Shown here: piece by piece, positions 1-20,908 of the stretch | Position numbering within the stretch: the stretch's first letter is position 1 | How the letters are laid out: each line of letters begins with the position of its first letter | Origin: a virus | Length of the DNA: 64,000 nt | Reading direction: 5' to 3' (one strand) | IMG/VR virus record: IMGVR_UViG_3300035698_010970 | Span: 1-64,000 of that record | The notes under the pieces: model-generated | The model's database searches: none | What the model saw: the letters and a program-made list of their open reading frames with translations, nothing else | What the model was told of the DNA's origin: nothing | Position numbers and translations under genes: made by a program

Positions 1-282
1 ATAGTCTCCCGGGGACTCCGCGTAGTCATCCTCGAATACAAAGTCGTTTCCGGTGTTGTAGGGCGGATCGATGAAGATCATCTTCACCCTGTTTAGATGG
101 GTTTTTTGAAGCAGCTTCAATGCCTCCAAGTTGTCTCCCTCAATGTAGAGATTCTTCGTCCCATCAAAGTCTACACTCTCTTCAGGGTATGGTTTCAGCA
201 CTTTCGCAGTTGGTGCGCCTGCCTCGGCACGAGCTGCACGTTTCCCTGGCCAGTTTAGGCCATACCGTTCCTGGGAACTCAT
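1..282 (-). CDS. Type III Mod-like / N6-adenine DNA methyltransferase (5' part; runs off the left edge)
   Basis: Not in the ORF track; translated by hand: MSSQERYGLNWPGKRAA...KNLYIEGDNLEALKLLQKTHLNRVKMIFIDPPYNTGNDFVFEDDY. The YGLNWPGK, NLYIEGDNL and IDPPYNTG motifs are typical of Mod/N6_N4 MTases. ATG overlaps the dnaB stop (ATGA). Confidence 0.92.
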   Translation of the reverse strand, partial: MSSQERYGLNWPGKRAARAEAGAPTAKVLKPYPEESVDFDGTKNLYIEGDNLEALKLLQKTHLNRVKMIFIDPPYNTGNDFVFEDDYAESPGDY

Positions 283-3170
283 GATGAGAAAGCCTCGTCA
301 AGAGCGTTGCCAATATCCTCAGCCTCTTGCAGCTTCTGATCATCGCTCTTCTCTTCTCCCTCGATACCCTCAAGGTCCGTCAAGATCCGTCGACAATGCC
401 ACTCAACCCTCACGGCAAATCTCTCGAAAGGCGCAGAGTCCCGAGACTTCAAACACTGAATGTACATACGACCCTTTGCCTTCAGCTCCTCATCAAGCCA
501 TCCCGCTGTGACAATGTCCGAACTACGCTCGCAGTTATGAGAGAGTAGCGGTCCCGTCTGGTACTCGTGATCTCCGTCTACCTCGATGTCGTAAACCCTC
601 TCCGTCCGACCCGTAGGCTTCGAGGACACGACTCGGATCACCTGAAGGCGCAACACCTCTCGCAGCAAATCCGTTCTAGGGTCCTCGTGTCCGCCTTCTT
701 CCATGACACCCAAAAGCAGCTTCAGGGAACCGCGAGACACGAAACCCGTATCCCTAGCCTTCTCAACCGAGTTGTAGAAAGCCTTCTTGAGCCTTCCCTT
801 TGTGATGAGGGAATAAGGTGCGTAGTCTGCTGCTAGCGCAGCGAAGGTCTTACCCAAGGGTAGAATCTGAGTCTTCCGATTCCGTACGGGCTTAGTGTTC
901 CAGCAATTCAGGGTTTCTGCCTTGTGCGGTTCCGTGAATCCAATCTCCTCTTCAAACTGCTCGCGAGATTCAAAACCTCGCAGGCGAAGTGTCCAGCCCT
1001 TGTAGCGCTTTCCGGTAGCCTTGAGCATGCCCCATGCTGACGCCAGGTTCGTGTCGTATCCAAGAGTCTGCAGAAGGACCTGCACCTCTTGCAGGTATTC
1101 CTTCGAGGCCATCTTCAACCCAACAATGCCTTGGTTGTTGATCCACCCATCCGTGTCGAACAACCCTTGCAGGTAGCTGAGGACCATCGACTTGGGGGCT
1201 TGGAAAATGACGTCAGGCACCTTCTTACCTCTTGGGCCTGAGACATCCTCGAACCACCTTTTCAAGGGGAAACTGCTATGGATAAGGTCAAAGGAGCCTT
1301 GCCTCGAAGGGTTTTCAAGCAAATTAAGGTGCTGGCCAAACTCTTGCCGAAAGAGATCCCGAAGACGGTCTCGAATTGCGGCCTCTTTTCGATTGCCCGT
1401 GTATCCGATACCATCTCGATGGAGTTTTCCATCTCCATCATACGCACCTAGCAAGTAAGAAACTTCAGGGTTGAGCGTCTCAGGAGCGCACAGGGAAAGG
1501 CCCAGGCTTTGGCCTTTCCGAGCCACCTTACATTCCATTTTGTAGGAAGAAAGAGCCCGAAGTTTAGGTGCCTCAGTGGGGAAGGAGTGACAGCCAACGC
1601 TGAGCACGTGGTCTTGCGGGCTCAAGTCTTGAGCGCGTTTCCAAGCAATCTGCTCATTGTCTAACACCCGTACCCGGTGATTGCCCGTGACTTCGATAGA
1701 TGCTGCCGTGTTGAGCACCACTTCCCACGTCGGTCGCTCTCCTTGGTCGAAGAAGTCTAAGACGGGCTTCCATCCAGACCGGCTCCAAACTCTATCTCCT
1801 ATTTCAACTTCTTCTAATGGTTTCAAGCCTTTAGAGGTCCAAACCAAAGTGGCACCAATTGTGCACTCATTCGCGTAGCTGAGGTGCGTGAGGTTATAGC
1901 GGCCGTCTGCTTTCTCTGCGGAACGGAAACCTTCTCGTGAGATTTGGAACAGGCCAAGGATGGCCATTCCGAGTCCTCGGCGGAAGCTCATAGCGAGTCG
2001 CTTGAGGTCTCGGATTACCTCGTTGAGGTTTTCCGTGGTGTTCGACATCTTCTTGCGAGGCGACATGAGGCCCATGTGGTCGATGACCATCATTTTGAAG
2101 GGGTCGCGAGCGTATGTCAGTTCTGCTTTGGTCTTGAGGTCAGCGACGGTGAAGTCGGACTTGTCTGGATCGGCGACTTCGAGGTGGATAGCGCCATATC
2201 CGTTCGCGGGGTCGACGAAGTCCGGTTCGACGTAGTCGAAGAGGAATTTTTTCTCGTGGGGATCGAGCCTGGCGTTCTTGACCTTCTCGTAGTCTAGACC
2301 TTGGTCGTAGTGGATCATGCTCCCATCGGGAGCTTGCTTGCTGGGCTTTTGGATACCAAGCTGGATACGTACTTCACGGAACTTTTCGTGGTACGTATGC
2401 ATCGAGTGGATCATGTTGAGGCATTGGTGATAAGGCATCTCCAAGCTCAAGAAGAAAACACTGTAGCGATAGGTGATGGCTTGGTTGTAAGCCCATTGAA
2501 GTGCTAGGCTAGATTTTCCATGGCCAGTAAAGGCTGCATGGGTCCACAGCTCTGCTCTCTTAGCCCCAGCGAAGGCTTTGTCCATTTGGCTAATGCCTGA
2601 GAACTGTCCGATTCCGTGTGTTGGATCTGATTCGATCAGATCATAGTGGCTTCGGAACTCGGGAGTATCACTGATGAGGTCCCCTGTCAGCTTCGAGCCA
2701 AAGGCTGGAGCGATGAGGTCGTGGCTTTTTTCTTGGAAGAAGCGAGCGGCGTCGAAGGCACCTTTGAGGATTCGAGTCTCTCCGCGTTTCTCTTTGATCG
2801 TGTGACCTTCGGTAACGATGCGAGCCATCGTCTTGAGGTATTCGAGCAGGAGTCGAGAGCGGCGGTCTTCCACCTTCTCTTCGAGATGCCGAAGGAAGTC
2901 TCCTCGTGTTTTAGAGGGAAGGTTGATAACCGTTTCGATACGGTCAACGACTTCCATCTCTTTGAGGCGCTCGAAGTGTGAGCGCACGGTACTGATCTCT
3001 GGAACGTGCGTATGAGAGCTAAAGAAGTCTCGTACGTACTGCCAGATGAGGTTGTCTTCTTTGGTGTCGAACCCTAGGCCAGACTCTACCAGGGCAAGGT
3101 AGTTGCGTTGGAACAGTTCGACATCGTCTGCGGAGTCCGCGACGAATACAGAGCGAAGTAGTGTTTTCAT
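279..3170 (-). CDS. dnaB: DnaB-like replicative helicase containing an intein
   Basis: Walker A AFTGHGKSS, FLSLEMP (H1a), MVIDHMGL (H2), LKRLA..LFQISR (H3), CERSSD (H4), KSR arginine finger. Confidence 0.9.
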   Translation of the reverse strand: MKTLLRSVFVADSADDVELFQRNYLALVESGLGFDTKEDNLIWQYVRDFFSSHTHVPEISTVRSHFERLKEMEVVDRIETVINLPSKTRGDFLRHLEEKVEDRRSRLLLEYLKTMARIVTEGHTIKEKRGETRILKGAFDAARFFQEKSHDLIAPAFGSKLTGDLISDTPEFRSHYDLIESDPTHGIGQFSGISQMDKAFAGAKRAELWTHAAFTGHGKSSLALQWAYNQAITYRYSVFFLSLEMPYHQCLNMIHSMHTYHEKFREVRIQLGIQKPSKQAPDGSMIHYDQGLDYEKVKNARLDPHEKKFLFDYVEPDFVDPANGYGAIHLEVADPDKSDFTVADLKTKAELTYARDPFKMMVIDHMGLMSPRKKMSNTTENLNEVIRDLKRLAMSFRRGLGMAILGLFQISREGFRSAEKADGRYNLTHLSYANECTIGATLVWTSKGLKPLEEVEIGDRVWSRSGWKPVLDFFDQGERPTWEVVLNTAASIEVTGNHRVRVLDNEQIAWKRAQDLSPQDHVLSVGCHSFPTEAPKLRALSSYKMECKVARKGQSLGLSLCAPETLNPEVSYLLGAYDGDGKLHRDGIGYTGNRKEAAIRDRLRDLFRQEFGQHLNLLENPSRQGSFDLIHSSFPLKRWFEDVSGPRGKKVPDVIFQAPKSMVLSYLQGLFDTDGWINNQGIVGLKMASKEYLQEVQVLLQTLGYDTNLASAWGMLKATGKRYKGWTLRLRGFESREQFEEEIGFTEPHKAETLNCWNTKPVRNRKTQILPLGKTFAALAADYAPYSLITKGRLKKAFYNSVEKARDTGFVSRGSLKLLLGVMEEGGHEDPRTDLLREVLRLQVIRVVSSKPTGRTERVYDIEVDGDHEYQTGPLLSHNCERSSDIVTAGWLDEELKAKGRMYIQCLKSRDSAPFERFAVRVEWHCRRILTDLEGIEGEEKSDDQKLQEAEDIGNALDEAFSS
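534..1865 (-). mobile_element. Intein (444 aa) with LAGLIDADG homing endonuclease in DnaB
   Basis: Begins CTIGATLVWT, block B TGNHRV, LAGLIDADG motifs YLLGAYDGDG and YLQGLFDTDG, ends VYDIEVDGDHEY..LLSHN followed by Cys+1. Confidence 0.93.
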
Positions 3171-4249
3171 TTCTTCCCCCCTGTCCGGTCTTCCTCGTAC
3201 GTGTAGTCTATGGGGGTTGTTGTGCCGCTACCTGTAGAGAGTCGGATCTTCTTGTTTCGGACGTTGCCCGCTGCGGTGGTGGCCTGTGTTCCCGTATCGA
3301 GGATATCGTCTGGAGAGGAGTGTGCGACCATGGCTCCGGAGTTGTGTAGAACTCTGGTGAACGAATCTCTGAGTTTGGTCATGATCTCTGGGGAGTTACA
3401 GAGATGGGCAACATCGTCCACGAGATAGTTTGGTTGGTCGACAATCCACGTGGGTTTGTCGAGGAACTCTCGAATAGCGATGACTTCCATGAGGGTTTCG
3501 GGAGTCGCTGAGTTACGGGCTCGCTTCACGCCTAGGAGCAAGACCAGCAGGTCTGGGGCGTCTGCGAGATCGTGCAGGTCCATGTCTTTCGAGGCGGTTT
3601 CTGCCACGTCGACATCGAAGATCTGGATGGATTTTGCTTTGGCGGAAGCCAGCCATCCGGCCATCATTTGGGAGTCGGAGCGAACGCGGCAGAACCATCG
3701 TGGTCCCATTCGGAGGGCCACGTGACGCAGGTGAGCCTTGAATTCTTGGTCTTTAGCGGTGATCCAGACGCACTTGTCGACGAACTTCTTGAGCACGGAA
3801 GGCTTTTCGAGTCTGGGAGCCCTCATGAGGTCGACTCCGGGCCAAATCCTTCGTACGTTGCTCAGGACATCTCTAGCAAGGACGCAGCGACAACGGCGTC
3901 CGGCCAAGGGTTTGGGTTTGGGTTTGGCATTCTTGGGATTCTTGAGAGCGGCGGCATCAGGGATCTGAGATATGACATCGACCGTGATGAATCCTCGACC
4001 GTAGCAGAATTCGCAGTCGGGGTCTCCGTCGCCAGGGATGGATCTTTTGGTTGCCCCTAACTCCTTGAGGTCGCCTTTCTCTAGGAGACGCTCGAACCTC
4101 TTCTGCTTCTTGAGCACTTCCCAGCACACGTCTGGAACTTCGGCAACCTGGCCTCTCGTTAGGGTGAACGAGGGGGGAGTCTTGGTTTCCGCGGAGATCT
4201 TCGCAAACCGGATGGGGATGTCTTTCTCCCCCGTGTTCTGGATCTTCAA
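3167..4249 (-). CDS. DnaC/IstB-like helicase-loader homologue with Zn finger and degenerate ATPase motifs
   Basis: CEFC-x-G-x-G...CRC zinc site, DLLVLLLG (Walker B-like), EVIAIREFLDKPTWIV (IstB/DnaC-like C-terminal motif); directly upstream of dnaB. Confidence 0.65.
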   Translation of the reverse strand: MKIQNTGEKDIPIRFAKISAETKTPPSFTLTRGQVAEVPDVCWEVLKKQKRFERLLEKGDLKELGATKRSIPGDGDPDCEFCYGRGFITVDVISQIPDAAALKNPKNAKPKPKPLAGRRCRCVLARDVLSNVRRIWPGVDLMRAPRLEKPSVLKKFVDKCVWITAKDQEFKAHLRHVALRMGPRWFCRVRSDSQMMAGWLASAKAKSIQIFDVDVAETASKDMDLHDLADAPDLLVLLLGVKRARNSATPETLMEVIAIREFLDKPTWIVDQPNYLVDDVAHLCNSPEIMTKLRDSFTRVLHNSGAMVAHSSPDDILDTGTQATTAAGNVRNKKIRLSTGSGTTTPIDYTYEEDRTGGKK

Positions 4250-7242
4250 CGCTTCAACCTCGTTTTGGCATCGTCCTGCATCATCTTGAACAGGTTGGAT
4301 ATATCGTTCTTACTCTCAATGTCGAGGTCTTGGTCGTCCTCTCCTTTGAGTCGTTTCCCGATGACGGCTTCCACGAGCTTCATTTTGCGTTTGAGGACTC
4401 CGATGACCTTCTCGTCGATGGTATCTCGGCATGCGAGGTGGATCGCATACACACGGTCGTGCATCGATCCGATGCGGAGCATCCTGCCTAAAACTTGCAA
4501 ATAGGTGCCTGCAGACCAGGGAGAGTCATAGAAAATGATAGCCTTGGCGCTTTGGAGGTTGATGGCTTCGGAAGCGGCATCCGTGATAATGCAAACTCTT
4601 GCGGGATCCTTGGGATCATTGAACCGTTTCATGGAGACGTCTCTCTCCGTCATCTTCTCGCTCTTAAACTTGACCGTTTTAGTCTCTCCTCCGGTGATGC
4701 GGACAGCGTCAATCTTGGCCTTCTTCAAAAGGGGCATGAGAAGGTCGACCATTTTTCGGAAACGCGTGTACACGATCACGTTCTCGCTAGAAAGATCCCC
4801 TTCTTTGAGTAGCTCCATGAGGCGGTCAAGCTTATTCGAGTCCCCCTCGCACTCCACCAGCTCAGGGTGGTCTGCAATTTGCTGGCAGTAGATGAGGGCG
4901 GTTAGCGGCGTTACCTCCTTAACGTCTCCTGTCTTGTCCAGCTCAAGCAAGCCTGCGAGGGCTTCGTGATACTTGTGGTGCTGCGATTTCGAGAGCTTCA
5001 CCCGATCCGTACGGATCGTCAGTGGCGGTATGTCCTTTGCTACGGCATGCTTTGCTCGGCCCAGGAAGAAGGGATCGATGAGGCTCTTGAACTTCTCAAC
5101 CGATCCTTTCTTCGGATAGACAGGGATTGGAATCTGGCGTCCGCCTTTCCCTATCTTCTGCAGCCTCATCACGTAGTAGTCGTTGAGGAACGCATTCATG
5201 GACCCGGGGAAGGGGTTGGCGTCTGTGCCGGCCAACATCACGCAGAAGATCCCGTAGCCTTCCGTGAGGTTGTTCTTGATCAACGTAGCGGTCAGGCACC
5301 AAACCCGGCTCGCTTGGGAGGCCATGTGTTTTGCGATTTTTGCGACTTGAGTCTTCGGATTCTTGAAGGCAGAGCACTCATCGAACACGATGACTAGGTC
5401 CTTCATGGCTTGCAATTTTGCGAAGTCCTGCCTCAGAGACCCATAACCCATCACCAAGACGGTGGGGCCGGTTGCTTCCGCGAACTTCTCGTAGATCTTG
5501 TGTCGCTTTGCTGGAGTCCCTTGGACCTTGAGGATGGTCATTCCATCCGTGTGGCAGAACTTTCCAAACTCGTCGCGCCATTGCCCCACGGCGGACTTCG
5601 TGGTGACCACAAGAACCTTGGCGTCGGGCTCTTTCGACCAAACGTAGGTGAGGGCACCTATTGTTTGAATTGTGTTATGGTTGATCAGGCCGTTGCCGAC
5701 AAAGCTGTGTTCAGGATCATCAACCTCGATATCCATGACCTCGGCTTGACCTGCTTCGATATCGGTGATGGGGTCGTAAAAGTGGTGACGATCAACGATC
5801 TCTTGTAGCTCCAGGTATTCTGGCAGATGTGTGAGCCGAAAGTCTCGCAAATGGGTCATCAACTCTCGAATCTTCGAATAGGTGAGGTCTCTCCTGCCGG
5901 CAAAAACATGCTGGAGGTTGTTGCGGATCACGTCTCCAAACTGCTTAAGACCGGAGCCTTTTCGTAGGCTATTATTGCCTTTAGCCGAAGTTGCTACCTT
6001 CAAGGCTGCCCACAAGGGCCTCAACAAATGGGCCACATGAGGCACGACGTCGTGATTAGGGTTGGAGTCCTCGCTCATTGAAGAGGTCAGGACTGCGGTC
6101 TTCCGTTGCGTTACGAACCCAACTTCGTCTCGGTATTTCCGAGCATCATCCCCAAACAGAGTCAGCCTCCAGTACATCTCCCCATTTACGGGTTTCTCGG
6201 CTATCCGAGAAACCATGCCAAAGCGAAGCAAAAGCGCTTGCACATCTTGAACGAGCTTGAGGCTCTTAGAGGAATACTCGATCCCGCCTTCTAGCGCATG
6301 CCCATCGCCCTCGAATAGCCCTCGGAGAAACTGGACCACGACCTCGCGTGGGGAGCGGAAGATCGTCCAAGGCACACGCTTAGAGCCCGAAGTGACGTGC
6401 CGTGCTCCGGTAGCAGCGAGATAATCACGCAAGACAACGCTAGAGATTACGATTTCCTCATGGTTGCCATCCCATGTCAGACTTTCTTGAAGCAGTGCTC
6501 GAATATCTTGGTGAGCTTCAGGATCGAACTGAGTAATGGTGAACCCGTACTCGTTTGCCGAGTTTCCTTCCGCGACAAAGTACCCTAGGAGCCTCCCCAG
6601 CTCAGGAGTGACCGTTTTTGGGATGACGTAGCGCTTTGCGTTAGCAGCTCGCGTGTCCACGAAGGGCACGACCACTTCTTGCTCTGGCCACGTAACCTCT
6701 CTTCGCTCAACGCACAGGTAGTCTCCTACCCGAAGAGAGGGAAGACGTGTCCAACCTTCTCCCTCGGATCCTCGAACCCTCAGAGGGTGTCTGTGAGAGC
6801 CCTCAACCTCAAACCCGTAACGAGTTTTGATCCGCAACGTGGGCTTCACTCCGCCATAGTAGAAGGACTTGAGGGGGGCCCACTTCGCTCCCGTCCAGAC
6901 CTTGCACGCAACAGCTTGTGTGAAGGTGTCGGGATCGAGCTTTTGTCCTCGGTCTTCGCGGAGGTCCTCGATGGGGACCATTCCACGATCTGTGAGCACA
7001 CGGGTGTTTCCCGTAACGCATTTTCCCAATCCCGTGTCGTCACCAAGAAGGAATCTCGACATCGTATACAGATGGAGAACGCCTTGAACTTGGTAGTAGC
7101 GAAATTGGAGGGGGTGTTCTTCGCCGTCAAAGCCGATAAAGGTTTTCTTGAAGTACTTTGAAGGCTTGAGCTTGAGGTCGTCCTGCTCTCGAATCCTCTT
7201 CAGTCGAAAGTAAGCAGCTCGGGCCTTCTCGTCGAGGGGCAT
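4246..7242 (-). CDS. SNF2-family helicase containing an intein
   Basis: YQVQG, LLGDDTGLGK|T, DECS, LTATLIKNN, EAINLQ, DSPWS, QVLGRMLRIG. Start placed at ATG 7242 (MPLDEK) rather than the GTG at 7323, which lies in structured RNA sequence. Confidence 0.9.
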   Translation of the reverse strand: MPLDEKARAAYFRLKRIREQDDLKLKPSKYFKKTFIGFDGEEHPLQFRYYQVQGVLHLYTMSRFLLGDDTGLGKCVTGNTRVLTDRGMVPIEDLREDRGQKLDPDTFTQAVACKVWTGAKWAPLKSFYYGGVKPTLRIKTRYGFEVEGSHRHPLRVRGSEGEGWTRLPSLRVGDYLCVERREVTWPEQEVVVPFVDTRAANAKRYVIPKTVTPELGRLLGYFVAEGNSANEYGFTITQFDPEAHQDIRALLQESLTWDGNHEEIVISSVVLRDYLAATGARHVTSGSKRVPWTIFRSPREVVVQFLRGLFEGDGHALEGGIEYSSKSLKLVQDVQALLLRFGMVSRIAEKPVNGEMYWRLTLFGDDARKYRDEVGFVTQRKTAVLTSSMSEDSNPNHDVVPHVAHLLRPLWAALKVATSAKGNNSLRKGSGLKQFGDVIRNNLQHVFAGRRDLTYSKIRELMTHLRDFRLTHLPEYLELQEIVDRHHFYDPITDIEAGQAEVMDIEVDDPEHSFVGNGLINHNTIQTIGALTYVWSKEPDAKVLVVTTKSAVGQWRDEFGKFCHTDGMTILKVQGTPAKRHKIYEKFAEATGPTVLVMGYGSLRQDFAKLQAMKDLVIVFDECSAFKNPKTQVAKIAKHMASQASRVWCLTATLIKNNLTEGYGIFCVMLAGTDANPFPGSMNAFLNDYYVMRLQKIGKGGRQIPIPVYPKKGSVEKFKSLIDPFFLGRAKHAVAKDIPPLTIRTDRVKLSKSQHHKYHEALAGLLELDKTGDVKEVTPLTALIYCQQIADHPELVECEGDSNKLDRLMELLKEGDLSSENVIVYTRFRKMVDLLMPLLKKAKIDAVRITGGETKTVKFKSEKMTERDVSMKRFNDPKDPARVCIITDAASEAINLQSAKAIIFYDSPWSAGTYLQVLGRMLRIGSMHDRVYAIHLACRDTIDEKVIGVLKRKMKLVEAVIGKRLKGEDDQDLDIESKNDISNLFKMMQDDAKTRLKR
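5674..7020 (-). mobile_element. Intein (449 aa) with LAGLIDADG homing endonuclease in the SNF2 Walker A
   Basis: GLGK/CVTGNTRVLT...GSHRHP...LLGYFVAEG...FLRGLFEGDG...VMDIEVDDPEHSFVGNGLINHN/T. Confidence 0.93.
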
Positions 7243-7302
7243 CAAGAAGAGGTACCCCAGATTTTCGCACTTGGGCCTCTTTTTGAGAGGGGAGGGAAGG
7301 AG

Positions 7303-7431
7303 ACCACCGCCGAGGCTTCCCACTCGGAACTCCGGGGTTTGAACCCGGTATTTTTGGCTCGCTTTTTGAAGCGCTTACTCTATTACGAGCCGTTCCAGCA
7401 CTATGAAACTACTGGTTAGAACTACGGTGGC
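7303..7431 (-). ncRNA. Putative structured, tRNA-like non-coding RNA or leader
   Basis: Terminal stem GCCACCG/CGGUGGU, inner stem GGAAC/GUUCC, GGCUCG/CGAGCC stem and a perfect T-arm CCGGG-UUCAAAC-CCCGG. The 5' end lies 6 nt downstream of the CGTAGA promoter box. Confidence 0.55.
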
Positions 7432-7436
7432 AAACC

Positions 7437-7465
7437 CTCTACGCAGTCGCCGACGAAAAAAGAAC
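7437..7465 (-). promoter_or_regulatory. Repeated phage promoter-like motif, copy 1
   Basis: Minus strand GTTCTT-ttttcgtcggcgactg(16)-CGTAGAG. Confidence 0.65.
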
Positions 7466-7630
7466 TACTTGGCGATTTTTTTAACGACTTCGTACCACTT
7501 GGGGTACCGAGACCGCAGCTCGTTAGGGTTGATGTGGTAGGCGGCGAAGCAGTCGGCAAAGGCTTCCTCGGAGTTGGACTGCCCGTAAGGCAAGTTGGGG
7601 CTGTCCCAGGGGTCGATCTCGTGCTCACTC
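7465..7630 (-). pseudogene. Orphan C-terminal fragment resembling the end of a zincin-like metallopeptidase
   Basis: EEAFADCFAAYHINPNELRSRYPKWYEVVKK fits the E-x-FA-E/D..Y...P..L....P..Y tail of such proteins. No HExxH and no convincing start. Confidence 0.35.
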
Positions 7631-7870
7631 GCTAGCTTTGAGGGGTTGAGCCCCACACAGGATGCATCGCCCTGTCTTCTTGCCTTCAGAGTCGACATCG
7701 ATCGTCCACTGGTGTGGGCACGGGGCCACTGCGGCGGGTTGTACGGGCGCACGTCGCAGGAGACTCGCCTCCTCACGATGGCTCCGAGTGCACATGTCGG
7801 ACAGTATGGACTGAACTGTCTCGTTGAAGACCTGCCGCTTGTGCCCCTCGGGGCCCCAATGCCTCTTCAT
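7625..7870 (-). CDS. Small hypothetical Zn-ribbon protein
   Basis: ATGA-coupled start (MKRHWG); CPH...CILC motif. Confidence 0.55.
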   Translation of the reverse strand: MKRHWGPEGHKRQVFNETVQSILSDMCTRSHREEASLLRRAPVQPAAVAPCPHQWTIDVDSEGKKTGRCILCGAQPLKASE

Positions 7871-8100
7871 CGCCCCTCGTCTTTCGCACGCATCCGGTCG
7901 CACACGTCGGCCACCAGCTCCAGCGCGGTGGATTCCCCCACAAGCAGGTCCCTGCAGAGCTCGCCCGGGCTACCTCGGAGCCACGAACCGCGCTCGTTCA
8001 GCATCTCAAGGAATGTGATGAGCACGTCCCGGGCGGTCTCATCTGCCGGTCGCAGGCCCCCGGATCGCGCAGCGTCCACGAGTCCTCGTAGGTCGGGCAT
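7867..8100 (-). CDS. Hypothetical protein (77 aa)
   Basis: ATG start, tiles between neighbours with coupled stop/start. Confidence 0.55.
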   Translation of the reverse strand: MPDLRGLVDAARSGGLRPADETARDVLITFLEMLNERGSWLRGSPGELCRDLLVGESTALELVADVCDRMRAKDEGR

Positions 8101-8106
8101 CTCTAG

Positions 8107-13530: not shown

Positions 13531-13826
13531 GGGATGAGAACCAACGTGGCCTTCTTATCAGAAAAACCGGAACCCGAGCCATTGCCAAAGCCAGAGCCAT
13601 AGCCGTCGCCACGGCCAGTGCCAAAACCATAGCCATTGCCATTGCCAGAGCCATTGCCAAAGCCACGGCCAGAGCCAATGCCAAGGCCACGGCCAGAGCC
13701 CTGGCCATCGCCTTCGCCACGGCCATCGCCAAAACCATAGCCATAGCCAGAGCCATAGCCACCGCCAAAGCCAATGCCAACGCCGAGTCCACGTTTCTCA
13801 ACTCGATCTGGGTCGAAGATTCTCAT
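13527..13826 (-). CDS. Glycine-rich microprotein 3 (MRIFDPDRVEKR-(GX)n-KATLVLIP)
   Basis: Internal ATG at 13826 of the 195-aa track ORF matches the starts of the two upstream paralogues. The stop overlaps the groEL ATG. Confidence 0.7.
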   Translation of the reverse strand: MRIFDPDRVEKRGLGVGIGFGGGYGSGYGYGFGDGRGEGDGQGSGRGLGIGSGRGFGNGSGNGNGYGFGTGRGDGYGSGFGNGSGSGFSDKKATLVLIP

Positions 13827-13836
13827 AGTGTGTGAG

Positions 13837-14114
13837 CTATGCCGGAGTTTGGCCTTTGAGCAAATAGCAGGCATCCGTGTCTCCTTCGCAGGCCTTCTTC
13901 GCGAGAAATTTTTCCAGCTTGGCAACACACACTTCAGCTTCGGAAGGAGCCAACGGTTGCTGCCATCTCGGGTATTTTGCTTTTGCCGACGGACAGTATC
14001 GAGATTCTGGACAAGCTGGCTCTTCGCGTCCGTGTAGCTTGCCTCGGGATTAACTCTCTGAACGTACCGATCAATGGCGTGTGTGGTGAAGGTGAACTCC
14101 TGAACGTTGGCCAC
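13837..14114 (-). pseudogene. Frameshifted small gene (THAIDRYVQR motif)
   Basis: Good RBS and ATG at 14114. After ~13925 the -1 frame reads AKLEKFLAKKACEGDTDACYLLKGQTPA* (TAG 13837-13839), while frame 0 runs into microprotein 3. Confidence 0.4.
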
Positions 14115-14135
14115 TATGTCCCTCTCGTTGGAAGT

Positions 14136-14327
14136 TTAGGGTACGAAAACAAGGGTGGGCTTCTCTCCCTTGGGTTTACCATGGGAGAGAACTTGGATGC
14201 TAAGAATTCGGGTATCTGGGTCTACACGAAAATCGTATTCAGAGCCCGCACCAGCCTCACCATGGCCAGAGCCAGAGCCAGAGCCACAGGTCCACTTCTC
14301 AACTCGATCTGGATCGTAGATCCTCAT
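14136..14327 (-). CDS. Glycine-rich microprotein 2 (MRIYDPDRVEKW...KPTLVFVP)
   Basis: Paralogous termini; ATGA-coupled start. Confidence 0.7.
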   Translation of the reverse strand: MRIYDPDRVEKWTCGSGSGSGHGEAGAGSEYDFRVDPDTRILSIQVLSHGKPKGEKPTLVFVP

Positions 14328-14635
14328 GGGATGAACACCATGAGGGGTTTCCTCACGCCACCCACCTCGGAGTCCGAGCTACGACCTTCACCGGAACCAC
14401 CAGTGCCATAACCATAGCCAGAGCCATCGCCAAAGCCGTCTCCATAGCCAGCGCCATCGCCATGGCCTTCGCCATCGCCATAGCCATAGCCAGTTCCAAA
14501 GCCATAGCCAAAGCCTTCGCCATGACCCTCTCCAAGGCCCTTGCCCTCTCCATGGCCAGAGCCGTCGCCCGATCCAGATCCAGAACCGTAACCCAAGCTG
14601 CCCCTCCAGGCTCGGTCTTGATCCCAAACCCTCAC
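14324..14635 (-). CDS. Glycine-rich microprotein 1 (MRVWDQDRAWR-(GX)n-KPLMVFIP)
   Basis: Paralogous termini, long GX repeat, GTGA/ATGA coupling. Confidence 0.7.
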   Translation of the reverse strand: MRVWDQDRAWRGSLGYGSGSGSGDGSGHGEGKGLGEGHGEGFGYGFGTGYGYGDGEGHGDGAGYGDGFGDGSGYGYGTGGSGEGRSSDSEVGGVRKPLMVFIP

Positions 14636-16135: not shown

Positions 16136-17830
16136 TCAGCGCATCTCGCCTTCAATGATGTAGCGAATGCGTTGGTAGCTAGGATCGAAAATGATGTGCT
16201 CGTCATTGACGACGGTAGAGAAGCTCGACATGGCCGCAATCGAGTCTTTTCCATCGGGGGGAGTGCTCCACGAGCCTGTCCGTCTAGCCTTGTAGGCGTC
16301 TCCCATGATCACGTCATTGAGGAACATGAACCATCCGCGCCCACTGATGCTTCCTTGGTTTCCATAGTAAGATGCGCGATCCCCGCAATACCCGTGCGAT
16401 TTCAGGTAGTCTGAGGCAAAATAGCAGCCTCCCCCGAAGGCTGCGCCGGTAATTTGCGCCCCCGGAAGGGACCGGGGCAGGCGTAGGTTGGTCTGGAGGA
16501 TGGGAGCAATGTTGACGGCTCGTGTTCCGTGGATACCCAGAAACACATTTGCGTTTTCAGCGTAATCCGAAATATCCGAAAGATCTGCACGAGTCCGGGG
16601 CTGCAAGTTTGCAAATAGATCGAAGTCTCCCACGCGTTTCTTAGCCACCTTCTTGACAGCGTTGCGAAACTCTGTGTCACGGTCCGGCCGTTCAACAGTG
16701 AACATGTTGTGGATGATGAGCTTCTGCCCTCGCAGGTGCCCATGACGATTGTTCGTCATACCTCGATAGGTCTGTTCAACCCACTTGCCTTGCTTGCTCT
16801 TCGGGTCGAGCCAACGGACCGTTGCGTTGAGACGGGAGTCCACGTCCACACCTTGGACCTGGACCTTGTCCTCCACGTCGAAGTCCTCGTTGGCCAGAGC
16901 CGACTCAAACGTGTCGAGGTCTTGCTGGAGCTGGAGGATGTTGCCCGAAGACAGCACCATCTTGAGGGCCCGAGCTTCGGCATCTTTGCTACGACCTGGG
17001 TCGGGTCGAGGAACCAAGCTTGCGACGTAGTTGGACAGCTCCTGCAGCTTCTTGTCTTTCGTGCAGGCGACCGCCAAACGGCGGTCGTACTGGGTCTGGT
17101 CGTCGGCCACCTTCTTGGTCGTCGTCTTGCCCACGCGAACGATGTGTTGCAAAGCCGTCGGGAGCAGTGTGTCTCGAACCTCTTCGATGGCTTCTTTCGT
17201 AGGAGTGACGCCACCAGACTCCGAAACCGTTCGGCGCACGTAGCTCTGAACACCTCCAACAAGGTCCTTCACGAGGCGAACCTCTTCGGGGTGGAAGCTC
17301 TTCGTAGGGAGAGCCTTGGCTTTCTTGGCAACCTTTTTCTTGGTCACCTTCTTCGCCAGGCCAGAGCTATCCTTGATCAGGTAGGCGTCAGGAAGGCCGC
17401 TTTCCCGAGTTGCAAGTTTCTGGGCGACGTAGCCGTCTTTGCCGGATTTCCCGACCCAAATGCCGTCCTTTTGTACGAGACGTTTGACGTTCTTGGATTG
17501 GCACTGCTTCTGGAAGAAGGCGCGAGCTTCGTCCTCCGAGCTGCACTGCACGAACTGGTAGTCTTGGCCTGAGAAGGCGTCTCCAGACCAGGATTTCCCG
17601 GTCTTGGCCCGACCCCACTCCAAGTACACGAACCACCCACTGTCGTTCTTGACGACTCCTGCGTGGTAGTATTTGTTGTTGTTCGCACCGAACTGGTTGA
17701 CGCACTTCAGGTCAGCGATACCAACGTCGCTCCCAAAGTCGTCTTGGTCCTTGGCCGCACGGCCTTGGTAGGTGAAGTCCGAAGGGTTCTTCCCAGCTGG
17801 GAACTCTTTACGTCCTAGTTTAGTTGGCAT
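16136..17830 (-). CDS. WGR-domain poly(ADP-ribose) polymerase (PARP)-like ADP-ribosyltransferase
   Basis: N-terminal NNNKYY...VYLEWGR (WGR), helical middle, catalytic IHGT...IL..NLR..GAAFGGGCYFA..KSHGY..FMFLNDV.MG..NDEHIIFD....IRYIIE with the H-Y-E triad. Confidence 0.88.
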   Translation of the reverse strand: MPTKLGRKEFPAGKNPSDFTYQGRAAKDQDDFGSDVGIADLKCVNQFGANNNKYYHAGVVKNDSGWFVYLEWGRAKTGKSWSGDAFSGQDYQFVQCSSEDEARAFFQKQCQSKNVKRLVQKDGIWVGKSGKDGYVAQKLATRESGLPDAYLIKDSSGLAKKVTKKKVAKKAKALPTKSFHPEEVRLVKDLVGGVQSYVRRTVSESGGVTPTKEAIEEVRDTLLPTALQHIVRVGKTTTKKVADDQTQYDRRLAVACTKDKKLQELSNYVASLVPRPDPGRSKDAEARALKMVLSSGNILQLQQDLDTFESALANEDFDVEDKVQVQGVDVDSRLNATVRWLDPKSKQGKWVEQTYRGMTNNRHGHLRGQKLIIHNMFTVERPDRDTEFRNAVKKVAKKRVGDFDLFANLQPRTRADLSDISDYAENANVFLGIHGTRAVNIAPILQTNLRLPRSLPGAQITGAAFGGGCYFASDYLKSHGYCGDRASYYGNQGSISGRGWFMFLNDVIMGDAYKARRTGSWSTPPDGKDSIAAMSSFSTVVNDEHIIFDPSYQRIRYIIEGEMR

Positions 17831-17841
17831 CTTGTTCGTTC

Positions 17842-18285
17842 CTAAGTGAAGCGGGCAGCGGAGTGGTGAATGAGGGTGACCGCGCTTTGAGCACGGTGGA
17901 AGGCAGCTTCAGTCTTGCTGAAGGCATGAACTTGGTCTTCGAGTTTGCTCACGTCGCACAGAAGAGCAGTGTCGAGGGTAGACATTGCGATGGCGTTGGA
18001 AACGTCGAACTTGAAAGGCATCACGCGGAAGAGGACAATTTCGGCGGCAAGAACTTTCTTTTCATCCCAGTCTCGTTGCTTACGCGTGGGCAGCTTTCGG
18101 ATAGCTTTGCTCACGAATATCTCAAGGCGCTTGACGGGGTGCCGTTTGAGGGTGACGCAGTGAAGATACTCGTGGCAGACAGCTTCTACAGCCACCTTGT
18201 CCGAGTTATCACCAAGACCGTGGAAGTCTGCAAGGCGGAGACAAGCGCCTCGAAAACCTCGACCAAGGTTGATACGTTGGATCAT
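17842..18285 (-). CDS. Hypothetical HExxH metalloprotease-like protein
   Basis: ATGA-coupled start (MIQRIN) at 18285; AVCHEYLH motif with downstream Glu residues. Confidence 0.55.
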   Translation of the reverse strand: MIQRINLGRGFRGACLRLADFHGLGDNSDKVAVEAVCHEYLHCVTLKRHPVKRLEIFVSKAIRKLPTRKQRDWDEKKVLAAEIVLFRVMPFKFDVSNAIAMSTLDTALLCDVSKLEDQVHAFSKTEAAFHRAQSAVTLIHHSAARFT

Positions 18286-18836
18286 TCCACACCTTCCACG
18301 AAAGACTTGTCTCTCCAGTAGGCGAAGGACTTGTGAAGAGCAGACACGAACTCTCCGTCGCTCATCTCGGTGGCTGTGCCTCCGCTCATCTCGAAGTGGT
18401 TGTACATCAGAGTCGAGGGATGCATGGGCATCTCTTCGTCCGTGATTCGAGCGTTGATGCTGATGATCTCCCACTCCGCATCCGAAGAGCGTTCGTTGTT
18501 CTCGTCGAGAACGTCGGCATGGTAGAGCACGATGTCCACGTGCTTGGCGGGCTGTTTCTCACCTTTGGTTTGGACGTTTTTGCGGGGCTCTTCGCCGTCT
18601 TGCCGGGCTTCGAAGGACCCTTGGAGGGTGTCGCCCTCTTTGAGGGTCACGACGCCTGAGAGGAACCCTTCCGCCGGTACAGGCACGAGGAGGACCCCTT
18701 CTCGGTAGCCAGGCTTGGCTTGGTCGAAGCAGTCTGTGGCGAGCTTCCGTACCTCTTCCCAGGAGCCTGTGTAGTGGCTGAACCGGGAGGCTGCGGTTTG
18801 TCGTTGGACAAAATGGCTGACTTCAATGTTGGGCAT
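18282..18836 (-). CDS. DUF3228-like protein
   Basis: FVQRQ...FSHY...KPGYREGVLLVP...FEAR..EEP...PAKHVDIVLY...WEIISINA...PMHP.TLM.N....GG pattern recalled for DUF3228; start at MPNIE with GGAAGA RBS. Confidence 0.7.
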   Translation of the reverse strand: MPNIEVSHFVQRQTAASRFSHYTGSWEEVRKLATDCFDQAKPGYREGVLLVPVPAEGFLSGVVTLKEGDTLQGSFEARQDGEEPRKNVQTKGEKQPAKHVDIVLYHADVLDENNERSSDAEWEIISINARITDEEMPMHPSTLMYNHFEMSGGTATEMSDGEFVSALHKSFAYWRDKSFVEGVE

Positions 18837-19059
18837 GGTCTTCTTCCTCGTAGAGCCCGTAGTTTTCATCCCAGTCCAGCAGGGCTAACTCTGGATCAGA
18901 CCCATGGCCATGGCACTGGGGTCCGGCGTCCGGCGCTCCGTCATTGCAGTTGTCGCAGTACGCCTGGTAGTCCCAGTTTCGTTGGGGTGTGGGATTTACG
19001 GTCGGGGAAACCGTGGGCTCCCCTCCGCAAAAAGGGCATGGTTTGTGTGCTTTGCTCAT
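18823..19059 (-). CDS. Lar-like (restriction alleviation) Zn-ribbon protein
   Basis: KPCPFCGG...CDNC...A...W pattern; start MSKAHK. Confidence 0.6.
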   Translation of the reverse strand: MSKAHKPCPFCGGEPTVSPTVNPTPQRNWDYQAYCDNCNDGAPDAGPQCHGHGSDPELALLDWDENYGLYEEEDHAQH

Positions 19060-19596: not shown

Positions 19597-20073
19597 TCAT
19601 GAGATCACCGTGATGAGGGTGAAGCCTTCCTCGACTGTGACAGGTTGAGACCGCATGTTGCTGATCATGACGCTCATGGTCGTCCATGGCACTCGACGAC
19701 ACATGTCTCTGGAAGCATTCCGGCGCCACACCTCGACCTCCGGGGTCAAGAACACCACCGCTTCAAGGGGAACCCCCGCTGCTTGAGCGAACCGGACCAA
19801 CACGGAGCGCCGGCCCATCTTGGTCAAAGTCGCATCAAAATAGATAGCGTTGTGGTCTAACGCATCGGTCTTCGCTTGCTGACGAAGCCAGGTGGTCTTC
19901 CCTGCCCCAGGAGGACCTACGAGGAGCACGAGCTTCGACACAGCGGGGTTTTCGAGGGTTTCCGCCAGGTCTGTGTATGCAGCCTCCCAAGCTGCGTCAA
20001 CACGGTCTGGGGTCCAGTAGTAGTCCCCCTCCTCGTCAAGGAGCAAGGCGTCCGGGGAGATTATGCGCGGCAT
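19597..20073 (-). CDS. AAA_33 / polynucleotide-kinase-like P-loop kinase
   Basis: LVLLVGPPGAGKTTW, YFDAT, RRNASR..RRVP, EEGF. Confidence 0.82.
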   Translation of the reverse strand: MPRIISPDALLLDEEGDYYWTPDRVDAAWEAAYTDLAETLENPAVSKLVLLVGPPGAGKTTWLRQQAKTDALDHNAIYFDATLTKMGRRSVLVRFAQAAGVPLEAVVFLTPEVEVWRRNASRDMCRRVPWTTMSVMISNMRSQPVTVEEGFTLITVIS

Positions 20074-20793: not shown

Positions 20794-20822
20794 CTCTACG
20801 CCAACGGGATGCGAAAGTGAAC
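20794..20822 (-). promoter_or_regulatory. Repeated phage promoter-like motif, copy 4
   Basis: GTTCAC-tttcgcatcccgttgg(16)-CGTAGAG; ATG 9 nt after the CGTAGA box. Confidence 0.7.
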
Positions 20823-20908
20823 CTAGCTCAGCAATTTCAGGGTCTCAAAAAGGATAGATACGGACTGGGGGACGTACTCGGACATTGCAGTTCTCTACCC
20901 CCACCAAG

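What the first reader, a model, noticed from the sequence alone, without database searches (positions are those of the whole stretch)
7303..7465. Promoter-driven ~129-nt tRNA-mimic RNA closed by a 5'-3' terminal stem, upstream of the replication operon
Seen (minus strand): the conserved promoter copy at 7437-7465 is followed 6 nt after CGTAGA by GCCACCG, not by an ATG as in the other copies. GCCACCG (7425-7431) pairs with CGGUGGU (7303-7309). Inside are an acceptor-like stem GGAAC/GUUCC, a D-like GCUC-GUAAUA-GAGU (or alternatively GGCUCG/CGAGCC), a CUUCAAA loop sequence, and a perfect T-arm CCGGG-UUCAAAC-CCCGG (7332-7348). A competing hairpin CCGAG/CUCGG, a CU-rich anti-SD-like tract (CUCCUUCCCUCC) and a CCUCU/AGAGG hairpin follow before the SD-less SNF2 start. 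Known: bacterial and phage Y RNAs and other tRNA mimics combine a tRNA-like module with a terminal stem. Inference: an undescribed ncRNA (decoy for anticodon nucleases, Y-like RNA) or a conformational leader controlling replication genes.
Basis: partly seen in the sequence, partly recalled or inferred. Interest (0 to 1): 0.78.

Follow-up and report, generated by a model that had tools for sequence, protein, structure and literature searches.

The report
tRNA-shaped RNA heading phage replication genes
A 129-base stretch just downstream of a phage promoter folds like a transfer RNA with extra arms; it is not a working tRNA and has no known relatives, so it is either an exapted tRNA-derived leader RNA or a decaying tRNA remnant.

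Summary
The sequence features are real. The window is a fragment of a huge phage, with all genes on the minus strand. Between a truncated 103-aa ORF and an intein-bearing SNF2 helicase (true start ATG 7242) lies a 222-nt gap. It holds a copy of a repeated phage promoter motif, whose predicted +1 falls on the first base of a 129-nt fold (7431-7303).

A covariance model built from this one sequence finds real tRNA genes in related phages. 42 of its 46 hits above background are ARAGORN tRNAs, and 164 kb of tRNA-free DNA gives none.

The terminal stem is the acceptor stem. The "perfect T-arm" sits at the anticodon-arm position. CCGAG/CUCGG sits at the T-arm position. About 60 nt (two hairpins) are extra.

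It is not a canonical tRNA: ARAGORN finds none, Rfam tRNA scores 12.7 bits against a cut-off of 29, and the elbow nucleotides are missing. It is not a Y RNA either.

The element lies in a lineage-specific insert and has no homologue, no sequence variation and no RNA data.

Best reading: a tRNA-derived leader or processing module. A decayed tRNA is a strong rival.

The parts
7437..7465 (-). Promoter-like motif copy: -35-like GTTCTT plus a T-run, then GTAGAG at 7442-7437. The predicted +1 is about 7431-7430.
   Evidence: Four other copies precede ATG by 5-8 nt after the hexamer. The matrix ranks this site third among non-training positions. The sigma-70 consensus scan finds no promoter here. No transcript data exist.
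7303..7431 (-). 129-nt tRNA-shaped fold with five helices
   Evidence: MFE -47.8 kcal/mol, z = -4.2. Single-sequence model R1 hits real tRNAs over its full length: 42 of 46 hits >=11.3 bits are ARAGORN tRNAs. Background maxima are 11.2 and 9.8 bits.
7425..7431 (-). Closing stem, 5' strand GCCACCG (acceptor-stem position), followed by U8 A9
   Evidence: Aligned to tRNA acceptor stems in all 6 alignments shown. Pair probability is >=0.83 in 15 of 18 contexts.
7303..7309 (-). Closing stem, 3' strand CGGUGGU. It abuts the preceding hairpin with 0 nt between them. It is followed by C-UCC, not NCCA.
7392..7422 (-). D-arm position: GUUC (7422-7419) and GAAC (7395-7392) enclose a 23-nt loop that itself forms the hairpin CCAGUA/UGCUGG (7415-7395).
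   Evidence: Read. The same 10-mer (ACCGUAGUUC) occurs at the same tRNA positions 3-13 in a phage tRNA-Lys. By sequence score alone this match is not significant (35% of background segments do as well).
7356..7391 (-). The linker AAAAAUA follows at 7355-7349.
   Evidence: Present in the MFE. It is deleted in alignments to tRNAs in 5 of the 6 alignments shown. It is taken as the anticodon arm in one alternative alignment.
7332..7348 (-). CCGGG-UUCAAAC-CCCGG: a 5-bp stem with a 7-nt loop. The loop fits both the T-loop consensus and an anticodon loop (U33, CAA, A37). On the plus strand it reads as a weak terminator-like hairpin followed by a T-run.
   Evidence: Placed at the anticodon-arm position by the Rfam tRNA model and by R1. 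Exact 15-mer match to T-arms, and 15 of 17 identity to the anticodon arm of a phage tRNA-Leu(CAA). Plus-strand terminator scan.
7310..7327 (-). CCGAG-UGGGAAGC-CUCGG: hairpin at the T-arm position with an 8-nt non-canonical loop (no U55 C56)
   Evidence: Its exact 13-mer also occurs in the D-arm region of a phage tRNA-Tyr (1.7% of background segments do as well).
7276..7302 (-). Pyrimidine tract CUCCUUCCCUCCCCUCU, overlapping the hairpin CCUCU-CAAAA-AGAGG (7290-7276)
   Evidence: The 8-mer TCAAAAAG occurs on the minus strand of the whole contig only here and in the extra hairpin. These are the only two 5-bp hairpins with a CAAA(A) loop on that strand.
7240..7242 (-). ATG start of the intein-bearing SNF2 helicase (4246-7242). 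No canonical Shine-Dalgarno sequence.
   Evidence: N-terminal alignment with 46 homologous loci and tblastn of the 74-aa N-extein. Pfam SNF2, LAGLIDADG and intein domains.
7465..7776 (-). 103-aa ORF: a truncated remnant that keeps only the C-terminal ~50 aa of a 151-170-aa HExxH protein family
   Evidence: In one homologue-bearing phage (L057) the full gene lies next to a tRNA array.
7243..8106 (-). Lineage-specific insert: 77-aa ORF, 103-aa ORF and the 222-nt gap. In relatives checked, the conserved upstream genes run to within 49 nt of SNF2.
   Evidence: Synteny by tblastn and gap sizes. GC is 0.59-0.70 at 7500-8100 and 0.44-0.47 at 7350-7499.

Best explanation
The element is a tRNA-derived, tRNA-shaped RNA module set at the head of the SNF2-DnaB replication gene block of a huge phage.

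An internal copy of the phage's repeated promoter motif is positioned so that transcription should start on the first base of a 7-bp acceptor-like stem. The RNA then forms:
- a D-arm-like helix with a much enlarged loop;
- one additional long hairpin;
- a 5-bp/7-nt hairpin at the anticodon-arm position;
- a 4-nt variable region;
- a hairpin at the T-arm position that stacks directly on the acceptor stem.

It cannot decode, because the elbow nucleotides are missing and the T-loop is non-canonical.

Inferred mechanism: it acts in cis on the replication-operon transcript. The acceptor/T-arm minihelix is the kind of substrate that host tRNA-processing nucleases (RNase P, RNase Z or RNase E) recognise. 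Cleavage at its 3' side would release a stable ~130-nt RNA and a processed SNF2 mRNA with a ~60-nt CU-rich leader. That would uncouple or tune expression of the replication genes.

Shown: the sequence, the fold, the tRNA shape, the promoter-motif placement, and the lineage-specific location. Inferred: transcription, processing, and any effect on expression.
For: tRNA shape:
- Model R1, built from this sequence alone, hits tRNA-Phe in L057 at 23.2 bits.
- In 81 kb of tRNA-rich phage loci it gives 46 hits >=11.3 bits, and 42 of these are ARAGORN tRNAs on the same strand.
- The best non-self hit is 11.2 bits in the 64-kb window and 9.8 bits in 100 kb of tRNA-free relatives.
- The Rfam tRNA model chooses the same register.
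- The hits span many class I isotypes, so the likeness is to the generic tRNA shape.

Helices: all 30 modelled pairs are standard (27 Watson-Crick, 3 G-U), while loop signatures are lost. This fits selection on structure rather than on decoding.

Promoter placement: in the two closest-matching copies the A of ATG is the 6th or 7th base after GTAGAG. Here the first base of the acceptor stem is the 6th.

No minus-strand terminator follows the fold, so the transcript should run into SNF2.

The gap is 222 nt, whereas 42 of 46 related loci have <=72 nt upstream of SNF2.
Against: - No homologue was found anywhere, so no covariation test is possible.
- No RNA run holds the sequence.
- The DNA contigs laid on it are identical, so they carry no variation.
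- The fold is only in the best 1.3% of genomic windows.
- The closing stem loses out in 3 of 18 transcript contexts.
- The element sits beside a truncated gene inside a lineage-specific insert, which is what a decaying remnant would look like.
- Three different tRNA registers can be drawn.
- The promoter is a motif inference only. The sigma-70 scan finds nothing.
- Processing by RNase P/Z is inferred from general knowledge and was not tested.
Confidence: 0.42

Rival explanations
1. Decaying pseudo-tRNA. The fold is a remnant of one or more tRNA genes from the arrays typical of this phage group. It was carried in with, or left by, the rearrangement that also truncated the neighbouring gene. It has no function of its own, and the promoter simply drives SNF2 through a long leader.
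For: - Related huge phages carry up to 67 tRNA genes. G044, which holds an intact homologue of the neighbouring gene next to tRNAs, has 31.
- The neighbouring 103-aa ORF is a truncated remnant.
- The region is a lineage-specific insert.
- ARAGORN and Rfam do not accept the fold as a tRNA.
- Fragments match different tRNA parts out of register: a T-arm 15-mer, a tRNA-Tyr D-arm 13-mer, and an anticodon-arm-like stretch.
- Two or three overlapping tRNA registers fit a mosaic origin.
Against: - All five helices are perfectly paired, while loops have diverged. Neutral decay should break stems too.
- The 7-bp closing stem joins sequences 115 nt apart.
- The fold starts exactly at the predicted +1 of the promoter copy.
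Confidence: 0.3
2. Trans-acting tRNA mimic. The released RNA acts as a decoy or sponge for host tRNA-targeting defence nucleases or tRNA-binding proteins, or as a Y-RNA-like scaffold.
For: - The shape is tRNA-like, with an intact 7-nt loop carrying U33 and A37 at the anticodon position.
- Phage tRNAs are proposed to counter tRNA-targeting defences (PMC10264068; search listing and start of abstract only).
- A small P-loop kinase (AAA_33) and a PARP-like gene lie in the same early region, but neither is linked to the element by any test.
Against: - No TROVE/Ro60 gene in the 72.5-kb record.
- No GNCGAA motif near the 5' end (read; criterion from PMC4201824).
- No Rfam family match.
- No terminator, so release needs processing.
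- No partner nuclease is known, and there is no conservation.
Confidence: 0.13
3. A cis-regulatory leader whose tRNA likeness is incidental. Possible mechanisms:
- a protein operator (three GTAGTT repeats);
- twin CAAAA-loop hairpins as a protein-binding or antitermination-type signal;
- the CU-rich tract as a Rho-loading or anti-Shine-Dalgarno-like site.
For: - GTAGTT occurs 13 times on the minus strand of 72.5 kb, and three of these lie within 57 nt here (7468, 7425, 7412).
- The two TCAAAAAG hairpins are unique on that strand in the contig.
- The predicted 189-nt leader is long. In phage phiKZ, typical 5'UTRs are 31-40 nt (PMC8244752, passages read).
- Alternative folds involving the start region exist.
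Against: - The tRNA-like architecture is far above background.
- No regulator or binding protein is identified.
- The downstream genes overlap, and no internal terminator was seen that would call for antitermination.
Confidence: 0.11
4. DNA-level or opposite-strand feature: a plus-strand intrinsic terminator for antisense transcripts, or a replication origin next to the helicase genes.
For: - The plus strand reads CCGGGGTTTGAACCCGG followed by TATTTTTG. A weak SorX-like match (15 bits, E 0.19-0.69) reflects that hairpin.
- GC is locally low (0.44-0.47), and direct repeats are present.
Against: - All called genes are on the minus strand.
- No plus-strand promoter-like site was found.
- The stem is only 5 bp.
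- There is no GC-skew inflection at 7.3 kb.
Confidence: 0.04

Closest known systems
Canonical class I tRNA genes of huge-phage tRNA arrays (Rfam RF00005)
   Same: A 7-bp acceptor stem followed by U8 A9. A D stem GUUC/GAAC, as in a phage tRNA-Lys. A 5-bp/7-nt hairpin with U33 and A37. A 4-nt variable region. A 5-bp hairpin abutting the acceptor 3' strand. The element's own model retrieves such tRNAs.
   Different: 129 nt rather than about 72-76. A 23-nt D loop. One extra 36-nt hairpin plus a 7-nt A-rich linker. No G18 G19. An 8-nt T-position loop without U55 C56. No encoded CCA. ARAGORN finds none, and Rfam tRNA scores 12.7 bits against a cut-off of 29.
Bacterial and phage Y RNAs of the YrlA type (Chen et al. 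2014, PMC4201824; abstract and passages read)
   Same: Length of 80-130 nt. The 5' and 3' ends pair. A tRNA-like module lies inside. Such RNAs are known in some phages.
   Different: No Ro60/TROVE gene within 4 kb or anywhere in the record. No GNCGAA(N)G motif near the 5' end. D- and T-loop signatures are absent. Here the end-to-end stem is a 7-bp acceptor-like stem, not a long Ro-binding stem.
tRNA-like processing signals in longer transcripts, such as tRNA punctuation in organelles and tRNA-like 3' modules cut by RNase P (recalled, not from a call)
   Same: A tRNA-shaped module embedded in a longer transcript, with no terminator of its own. It could serve as a cleavage signal that separates it from the flanking mRNA.
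   Different: Here the module would sit at the very 5' end of a phage operon transcript. Cleavage has not been shown.
Phage tRNAs proposed to evade or counter tRNA-targeting defences (van den Berg et al. 2023, PMC10264068; listing and start of abstract only)
   Same: Phage-encoded, tRNA-shaped, with an intact anticodon-type loop.
   Different: Those are functional decoding tRNAs with altered anticodon loops. This element lacks the features needed for decoding.
tmRNA tRNA-like domain
   Same: An acceptor stem plus T-arm stack, with the rest of the tRNA body replaced by other structure.
   Different: ARAGORN finds no tmRNA. There is no tag reading frame, no canonical T loop and no CCA.

Membership tests
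tRNA (RF00005 / ARAGORN) | Detected by tRNA gene finders at standard thresholds | tested here: not met
   ARAGORN finds 0 genes in the window and 0 in the whole 72.5-kb contig. Only poor solutions appear at relaxed thresholds. Rfam tRNA scores 12.7 bits, E 4.1, against a gathering score of 29.
tRNA (RF00005 / ARAGORN) | Cloverleaf topology: 7-bp acceptor stem, 2-nt linker, D arm, anticodon arm with a 7-nt loop (U33, R37), and a T arm abutting the acceptor 3' strand | tested here: met
   R1 alignments to real tRNAs use exactly these elements. 42 of 46 above-background hits are tRNAs. One extra hairpin and an enlarged D loop are additional.
tRNA (RF00005 / ARAGORN) | Elbow nucleotides G18 G19 and T54 Psi55 C56 in the arm that abuts the acceptor stem | tested here: not met
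   The T-position loop reads UGGGAAGC. No GG lies in the D-position loop away from the stem (read). The canonical UUCAAAC loop sits in the other hairpin.
tRNA (RF00005 / ARAGORN) | Length of about 70-95 nt | tested here: not met
   129 nt. About 60 nt are treated as an insertion in 5 of the 6 alignments shown.
Y RNA / YrlA | Encoded within about 4 kb of a Ro60 (TROVE) gene on the same strand | tested here: not met
   PF05731 search of the whole 72.5-kb record found 0 matches at E<=1, and the control genomes were detected. The record is only about 14% of the genome, so a distant Ro60 gene cannot be excluded.
Y RNA / YrlA | GNCGAA(N0-1)G motif near the 5' end | tested here: not met
   The 5' end reads GCCACCGUAGUUCUAACC, with no such motif (criterion).
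Y RNA / YrlA | Match to curated RNA family models | tested here: not met
   No Rfam family reaches its gathering score in the window. Nothing beyond chance-level hits at E<=10 on 7100-7600 and 7296-7436. I did not check which Y-RNA models the library holds.
tmRNA | tRNA-like domain plus tag reading frame, detected by ARAGORN | tested here: not met
   0 tmRNA genes.
Intrinsic terminator (plus strand) | GC-rich hairpin followed by a T-run at the end of a transcription unit | tested here: inconclusive
   The pattern scan lists 7332-7348 (+) with the tail TATTTTTGGC. Four such sites occur in 2 kb against 2.7 expected from shuffles. No plus-strand gene or promoter lies upstream.
Phage promoter with leaderless start (this phage's own repeated motif) | -35-like block, T-run and GTAGAG, with the start 6-9 nt after the hexamer | tested here: met
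   Motif alignment. The site ranks third among non-training positions with the matrix. That the motif is a promoter at all is an inference; no transcript data exist.

The most novel reading that the evidence does not exclude
A huge phage has exapted a tRNA gene into a promoter-driven, non-decoding tRNA mimic with two added arms. After release from the head of the replication-operon transcript, it acts in trans. It might be a decoy or sponge for host tRNA-targeting defence nucleases or tRNA-processing and tRNA-modifying enzymes. Alternatively it might couple replication-gene expression to the host's tRNA-processing capacity.
Probability: 0.12. Interest if true: 0.8.

Novelty: new variant of a known kind. 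Interest (0 to 1): 0.42.

Why it matters
Huge phages carry large tRNA arrays. Phage tRNAs are currently discussed as counter-measures against tRNA-targeting bacterial defences. A tRNA-shaped but non-decoding RNA, set exactly at a promoter's start site in front of replication genes, would be a different use of the tRNA fold in a phage: either a processing or stability module, or a mimic.

It also gives a practical lesson. A covariance model built from a single candidate, run against real tRNA arrays and tRNA-free background, revealed a tRNA likeness that ARAGORN and the Rfam thresholds miss.

If the element is only a decaying tRNA, it documents tRNA-array erosion next to a truncated gene, which is ordinary.

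Tried and rejected
Searches for relatives of the element found nothing:
- blastn of 6900-7800 against the phage collection gave no match.
- Exact 24-mer and 23-mer searches of viral and prokaryote contigs gave no match.
- Close-relative protein scans of IMG/VR with the 103-aa ORF and the SNF2 C-extein gave none.
- The metagenome scan gave one 100%-identical contig. It ends inside the intein and does not reach the element.

Synteny:
- 46 SNF2 loci were examined. Five of the 51 were dropped first: L022, L027 and L047, where the frame runs off the locus, and L051 and L052, at only 22-23% identity.
- None of the 46 has a comparable gap with a T-arm motif.
- No tRNA was found in the 42 loci scanned.

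Model searches:
- R1 over 43 related records via the genome search gave one hit, E 0.064, inside the SNF2 gene of G016, taken as chance. That tool's first look passed few candidates and did not even report tRNAs, so this negative is weak.
- R1 with default filters over 385 kb of five records gave only that same hit.

RNA evidence:
- No RNA holder was listed among the 18 runs.
- Contigs of 4 DNA runs were laid and are identical. None spans the whole stretch, and 7539-7643 is uncovered.

Other points:
- The origin idea was rejected for lack of a GC-skew inflection.
- No small ORF lies in the gap apart from the unsupported in-frame GTG 7323 extension.
- The extra-hairpin column was mis-indexed by one base and is not used.
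- A resemblance of the twin hairpins to lambdoid boxB-type hairpins is recalled only and was not tested.
- Paper supplements were not consulted.

Full report
CONTEXT. The window is the first 64 kb of a 72.5-kb IMG/VR virus record that CheckV rates about 14% complete. All called genes lie on the minus strand and are tightly packed. Identified genes include:
- baseplate J and very large ORFs of unknown family;
- GroEL, a second SNF2-type helicase, an SNF2 helicase and a DnaB helicase, both with LAGLIDADG inteins;
- a PARP-like protein with a WGR domain (WGR hit below its Pfam cut-off) and a small P-loop kinase.

SNF2 homologues reach at most 57% identity and come from contigs of up to 619 kb. 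The phage therefore belongs with the huge phages.

THE OBSERVATION. The finding lies in a 222-nt gap. The gap runs from the stop of a 103-aa ORF (7465-7776) to the SNF2 start.

The SNF2 start is ATG 7242. The 74-aa N-extein aligns from its first residues with the N-termini of homologues in the 46 loci examined and in tblastn. GTG 7270 is out of frame. The in-frame GTG 7323 would add 27 residues that no homologue has.

The promoter claim holds as a motif. GTAGAG preceded by a -35-like block and a T-run occurs at 20898, 20799, 19447, 15991 and 7442. At the first four, ATG follows 5-8 nt after the hexamer. A matrix made from three copies ranks 7442 third among about 145,000 other positions, and two unrelated sites score higher. 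The sigma-70 consensus scan finds nothing. No transcript data exist.

In the two most similar copies the A of ATG is the 6th or 7th base after GTAGAG. At 7442 the 6th base is G7431, the first base of the fold.

FOLD STATISTICS.
- The 129-nt RNA (7431-7303) folds at -47.8 kcal/mol, z = -4.2, with 0 of 200 shuffles as good. It forms four hairpins closed by a 7-bp stem.
- Against 4826 same-length windows of the contig it is in the best 7% raw, and the best 1.3% after GC correction.
- The closing stem has probability >=0.83 in 15 of 18 transcript contexts and 0.17-0.28 in three.
Forcing it costs 3.9 kcal/mol.
- T-arm-like hairpins are not rare: 6 in the contig against 3.1 in shuffles.

STANDARD DETECTORS.
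- ARAGORN finds no tRNA or tmRNA in the window or the contig.
- Rfam finds nothing at gathering thresholds.
- At E<=10 on 141 nt, the tRNA model gives 12.7 bits (E 4.1; cut-off 29). It places CCGGG-UUCAAAC-CCCGG as the anticodon arm and CCGAG-UGGGAAGC-CUCGG as the T arm.

THE DECISIVE TEST. I built a covariance model (R1) from the element alone, with its MFE helices. The model was run without speed filters.
- It scored 23.2 bits on a tRNA-Phe gene in locus L057.
- In 27 tRNA-rich loci (81,232 nt) taken from tRNA arrays of related phages, it gave 46 hits >=11.3 bits.
- 42 of those 46 coincide with ARAGORN tRNAs on the same strand. There are 143 ARAGORN calls in these loci; some loci overlap, so some genes count twice.
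- The best non-self hit in the window is 11.2 bits. The best in 100 kb of tRNA-free DNA from two relatives is 9.8 bits.
- The hits cover many class I isotypes.

The register is constant in 5 of the 6 alignments shown:
- the closing stem is the acceptor stem;
- UAGUUC corresponds to tRNA positions 8-13;
- about 60 nt are deleted;
- the UUCAAAC hairpin is the anticodon arm;
- AGUU is the variable loop;
- the CCGAG hairpin is the T arm, abutting the acceptor 3' strand.

GUUC (7422-7419) and GAAC (7395-7392) can form the D stem, as in a phage tRNA-Lys that shares the 10-mer ACCGUAGUUC at the same positions.

16 of its 20 hits >=14.4 bits are tRNAs, while the window background reaches 14.3 bits. 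One R1 alignment uses a third register, with the long hairpin as the anticodon arm and the UUCAAAC hairpin as the T arm.

So the tRNA shape is established. The arm assignment is not unique.

WHAT IT IS NOT. It is not a decoding tRNA:
- it is 129 nt long;
- it has a 23-nt D loop;
- it has an extra 36-nt hairpin plus an A-rich linker;
- it lacks G18 G19;
- its T-position loop has 8 nt and lacks U55 C56;
- it has no encoded CCA.

It is not a YrlA-type Y RNA by the criteria of Chen et al. 2014. There is no TROVE gene in the record, no GNCGAA motif, and no family-model match.

RELATIVES AND ORIGIN.
- No homologue of the element was found.
- In 42 of 46 related loci the gap upstream of SNF2 is <=72 nt.
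- In L003 the homologues of the 272-aa and 216-aa genes run directly up to SNF2. Other relatives show the 272-aa homologue followed by one gene of similar size.
- The window has in addition a 77-aa ORF, the 103-aa ORF and the gap, together 7243-8106. This is a lineage-specific insert with deviating GC.
- The 103-aa ORF keeps only the C-terminal ~50 residues of a 151-170-aa HExxH family, so it is a truncated remnant.
- In L057, one of three IMG/VR loci with that family, the intact gene is followed by convergent tRNA genes. That record has 31 tRNAs.
- Sequence-level matches of the element to 151 unique phage tRNAs are significant only for the two 3' hairpins: 0.3% and 1.7% of background segments do as well.

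These data fit a tRNA origin. They leave open whether the present sequence is maintained.

FUNCTION. Arguments for a maintained RNA:
- all 30 modelled pairs are intact while loop signatures are lost;
- the 7-bp stem joins ends 115 nt apart;
- the fold starts at the predicted +1.

There is no minus-strand terminator after the fold. The RNA is therefore the 5' part of the SNF2-DnaB transcript unless it is cut out. The acceptor/T-arm stack is the element that tRNA-processing nucleases recognise; this is established knowledge and was not tested here. On that basis I favour a cis-acting tRNA-like processing or stability module (0.42).

The main rival is a functionless decaying tRNA (0.30). The others are a trans-acting mimic (0.13), a leader whose tRNA likeness is incidental (0.11), and a DNA-level or plus-strand feature (0.04).

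Three features of the leader remain unexplained:
- three GTAGTT repeats within 57 nt;
- two hairpins sharing TCAAAAAG, unique on that strand of the contig;
- a 19-nt pyrimidine tract.

DATA LIMITS.
- No RNA run was listed.
- The DNA contigs from four runs are identical where they cover the element.

VERDICT. It is a singleton with no conservation or expression evidence, so interest is moderate.

Noticed in passing
L067:1352-1458 (+), record G019: A 107-nt AT-rich element lies 42 nt upstream of a tRNA-Lys in another huge phage. A rod of about 24 bp closes a loop that holds a T-arm-like hairpin (GUGAG-UUCAAAU-CUCAC). MFE is -36.1 kcal/mol, z = -6.3. ARAGORN does not call it. R1 scores 17.6 bits and R2 14.9 bits. 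Its layout is Y-RNA-like.
   Followed up: partly
window 7403-7468 (-): Three direct GTAGTT(C/T) repeats start at 7468, 7425 and 7412. The hexamer occurs only 13 times on this strand in 72.5 kb. One copy overlaps the -35-like block and two lie just after the predicted start. They may be an operator.
   Followed up: partly
window 7355-7372 and 7276-7290 (-): Two hairpins share the 8-mer TCAAAAAG, in CGCUU-CAAA-AAGCG and CCUCU-CAAAA-AGAGG. They are the only 5-bp hairpins with such loops on the minus strand of the contig. The reverse complement of the 8-mer occurs in or near two of the promoter copies (19458, 20845).
   Followed up: partly
window 7465-7776 (-): The 103-aa ORF is a truncated remnant of a 151-170-aa HExxH (metallopeptidase-like) family found in four other large-phage contigs. 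The N-terminal half, with the motif, is missing here.
   Followed up: yes
window 7538-7707: One assembly contig of run X1 joins 7538 to 7707, skipping 168 nt (56 codons) inside the 103-aa ORF. The shorter side is only 28 nt, so this may be an assembly artefact or a deletion variant.
   Followed up: no
window 4246-7242 and 279-3170 (-): Both the SNF2 helicase and the DnaB-like helicase carry inteins with LAGLIDADG homing-endonuclease domains. Many SNF2 homologues in related phages have an intein at the same site, after GLGK, and many do not.
   Followed up: partly
window 16136-17830, 18282-18869, 19597-20073 (-): The promoter-rich early region holds a PARP catalytic-domain protein with a WGR domain (WGR hit below its Pfam cut-off), a DUF3228 protein and a 158-aa AAA_33 P-loop kinase.
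   Followed up: no
window 20830-20898 (-): A terminator-like hairpin plus T-run is followed by a promoter-motif copy and a 20-codon leaderless mini-ORF. This lies directly upstream of the next promoter copy at 20799.
   Followed up: no
window 13531-14630 (-): Glycine-rich proteins are built from 12- and 18-nt repeats. These windows, and 22866-22911 inside the 1875-aa ORF, are the most strongly folding 129-nt windows of the contig.
   Followed up: no
G000 58093-68928 (-): A single open frame of about 3611 aa runs across the end of the window. The neighbouring ORFs of 1000-1900 aa have no Pfam match, apart from one Baseplate_J domain.
   Followed up: no
L057:2181-2264 (-): An 84-nt tRNA with a long variable arm and a Leu-like D loop is called Ile(GAU) by ARAGORN. 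Its acceptor, anticodon and T stems resemble those of the window element.
   Followed up: partly
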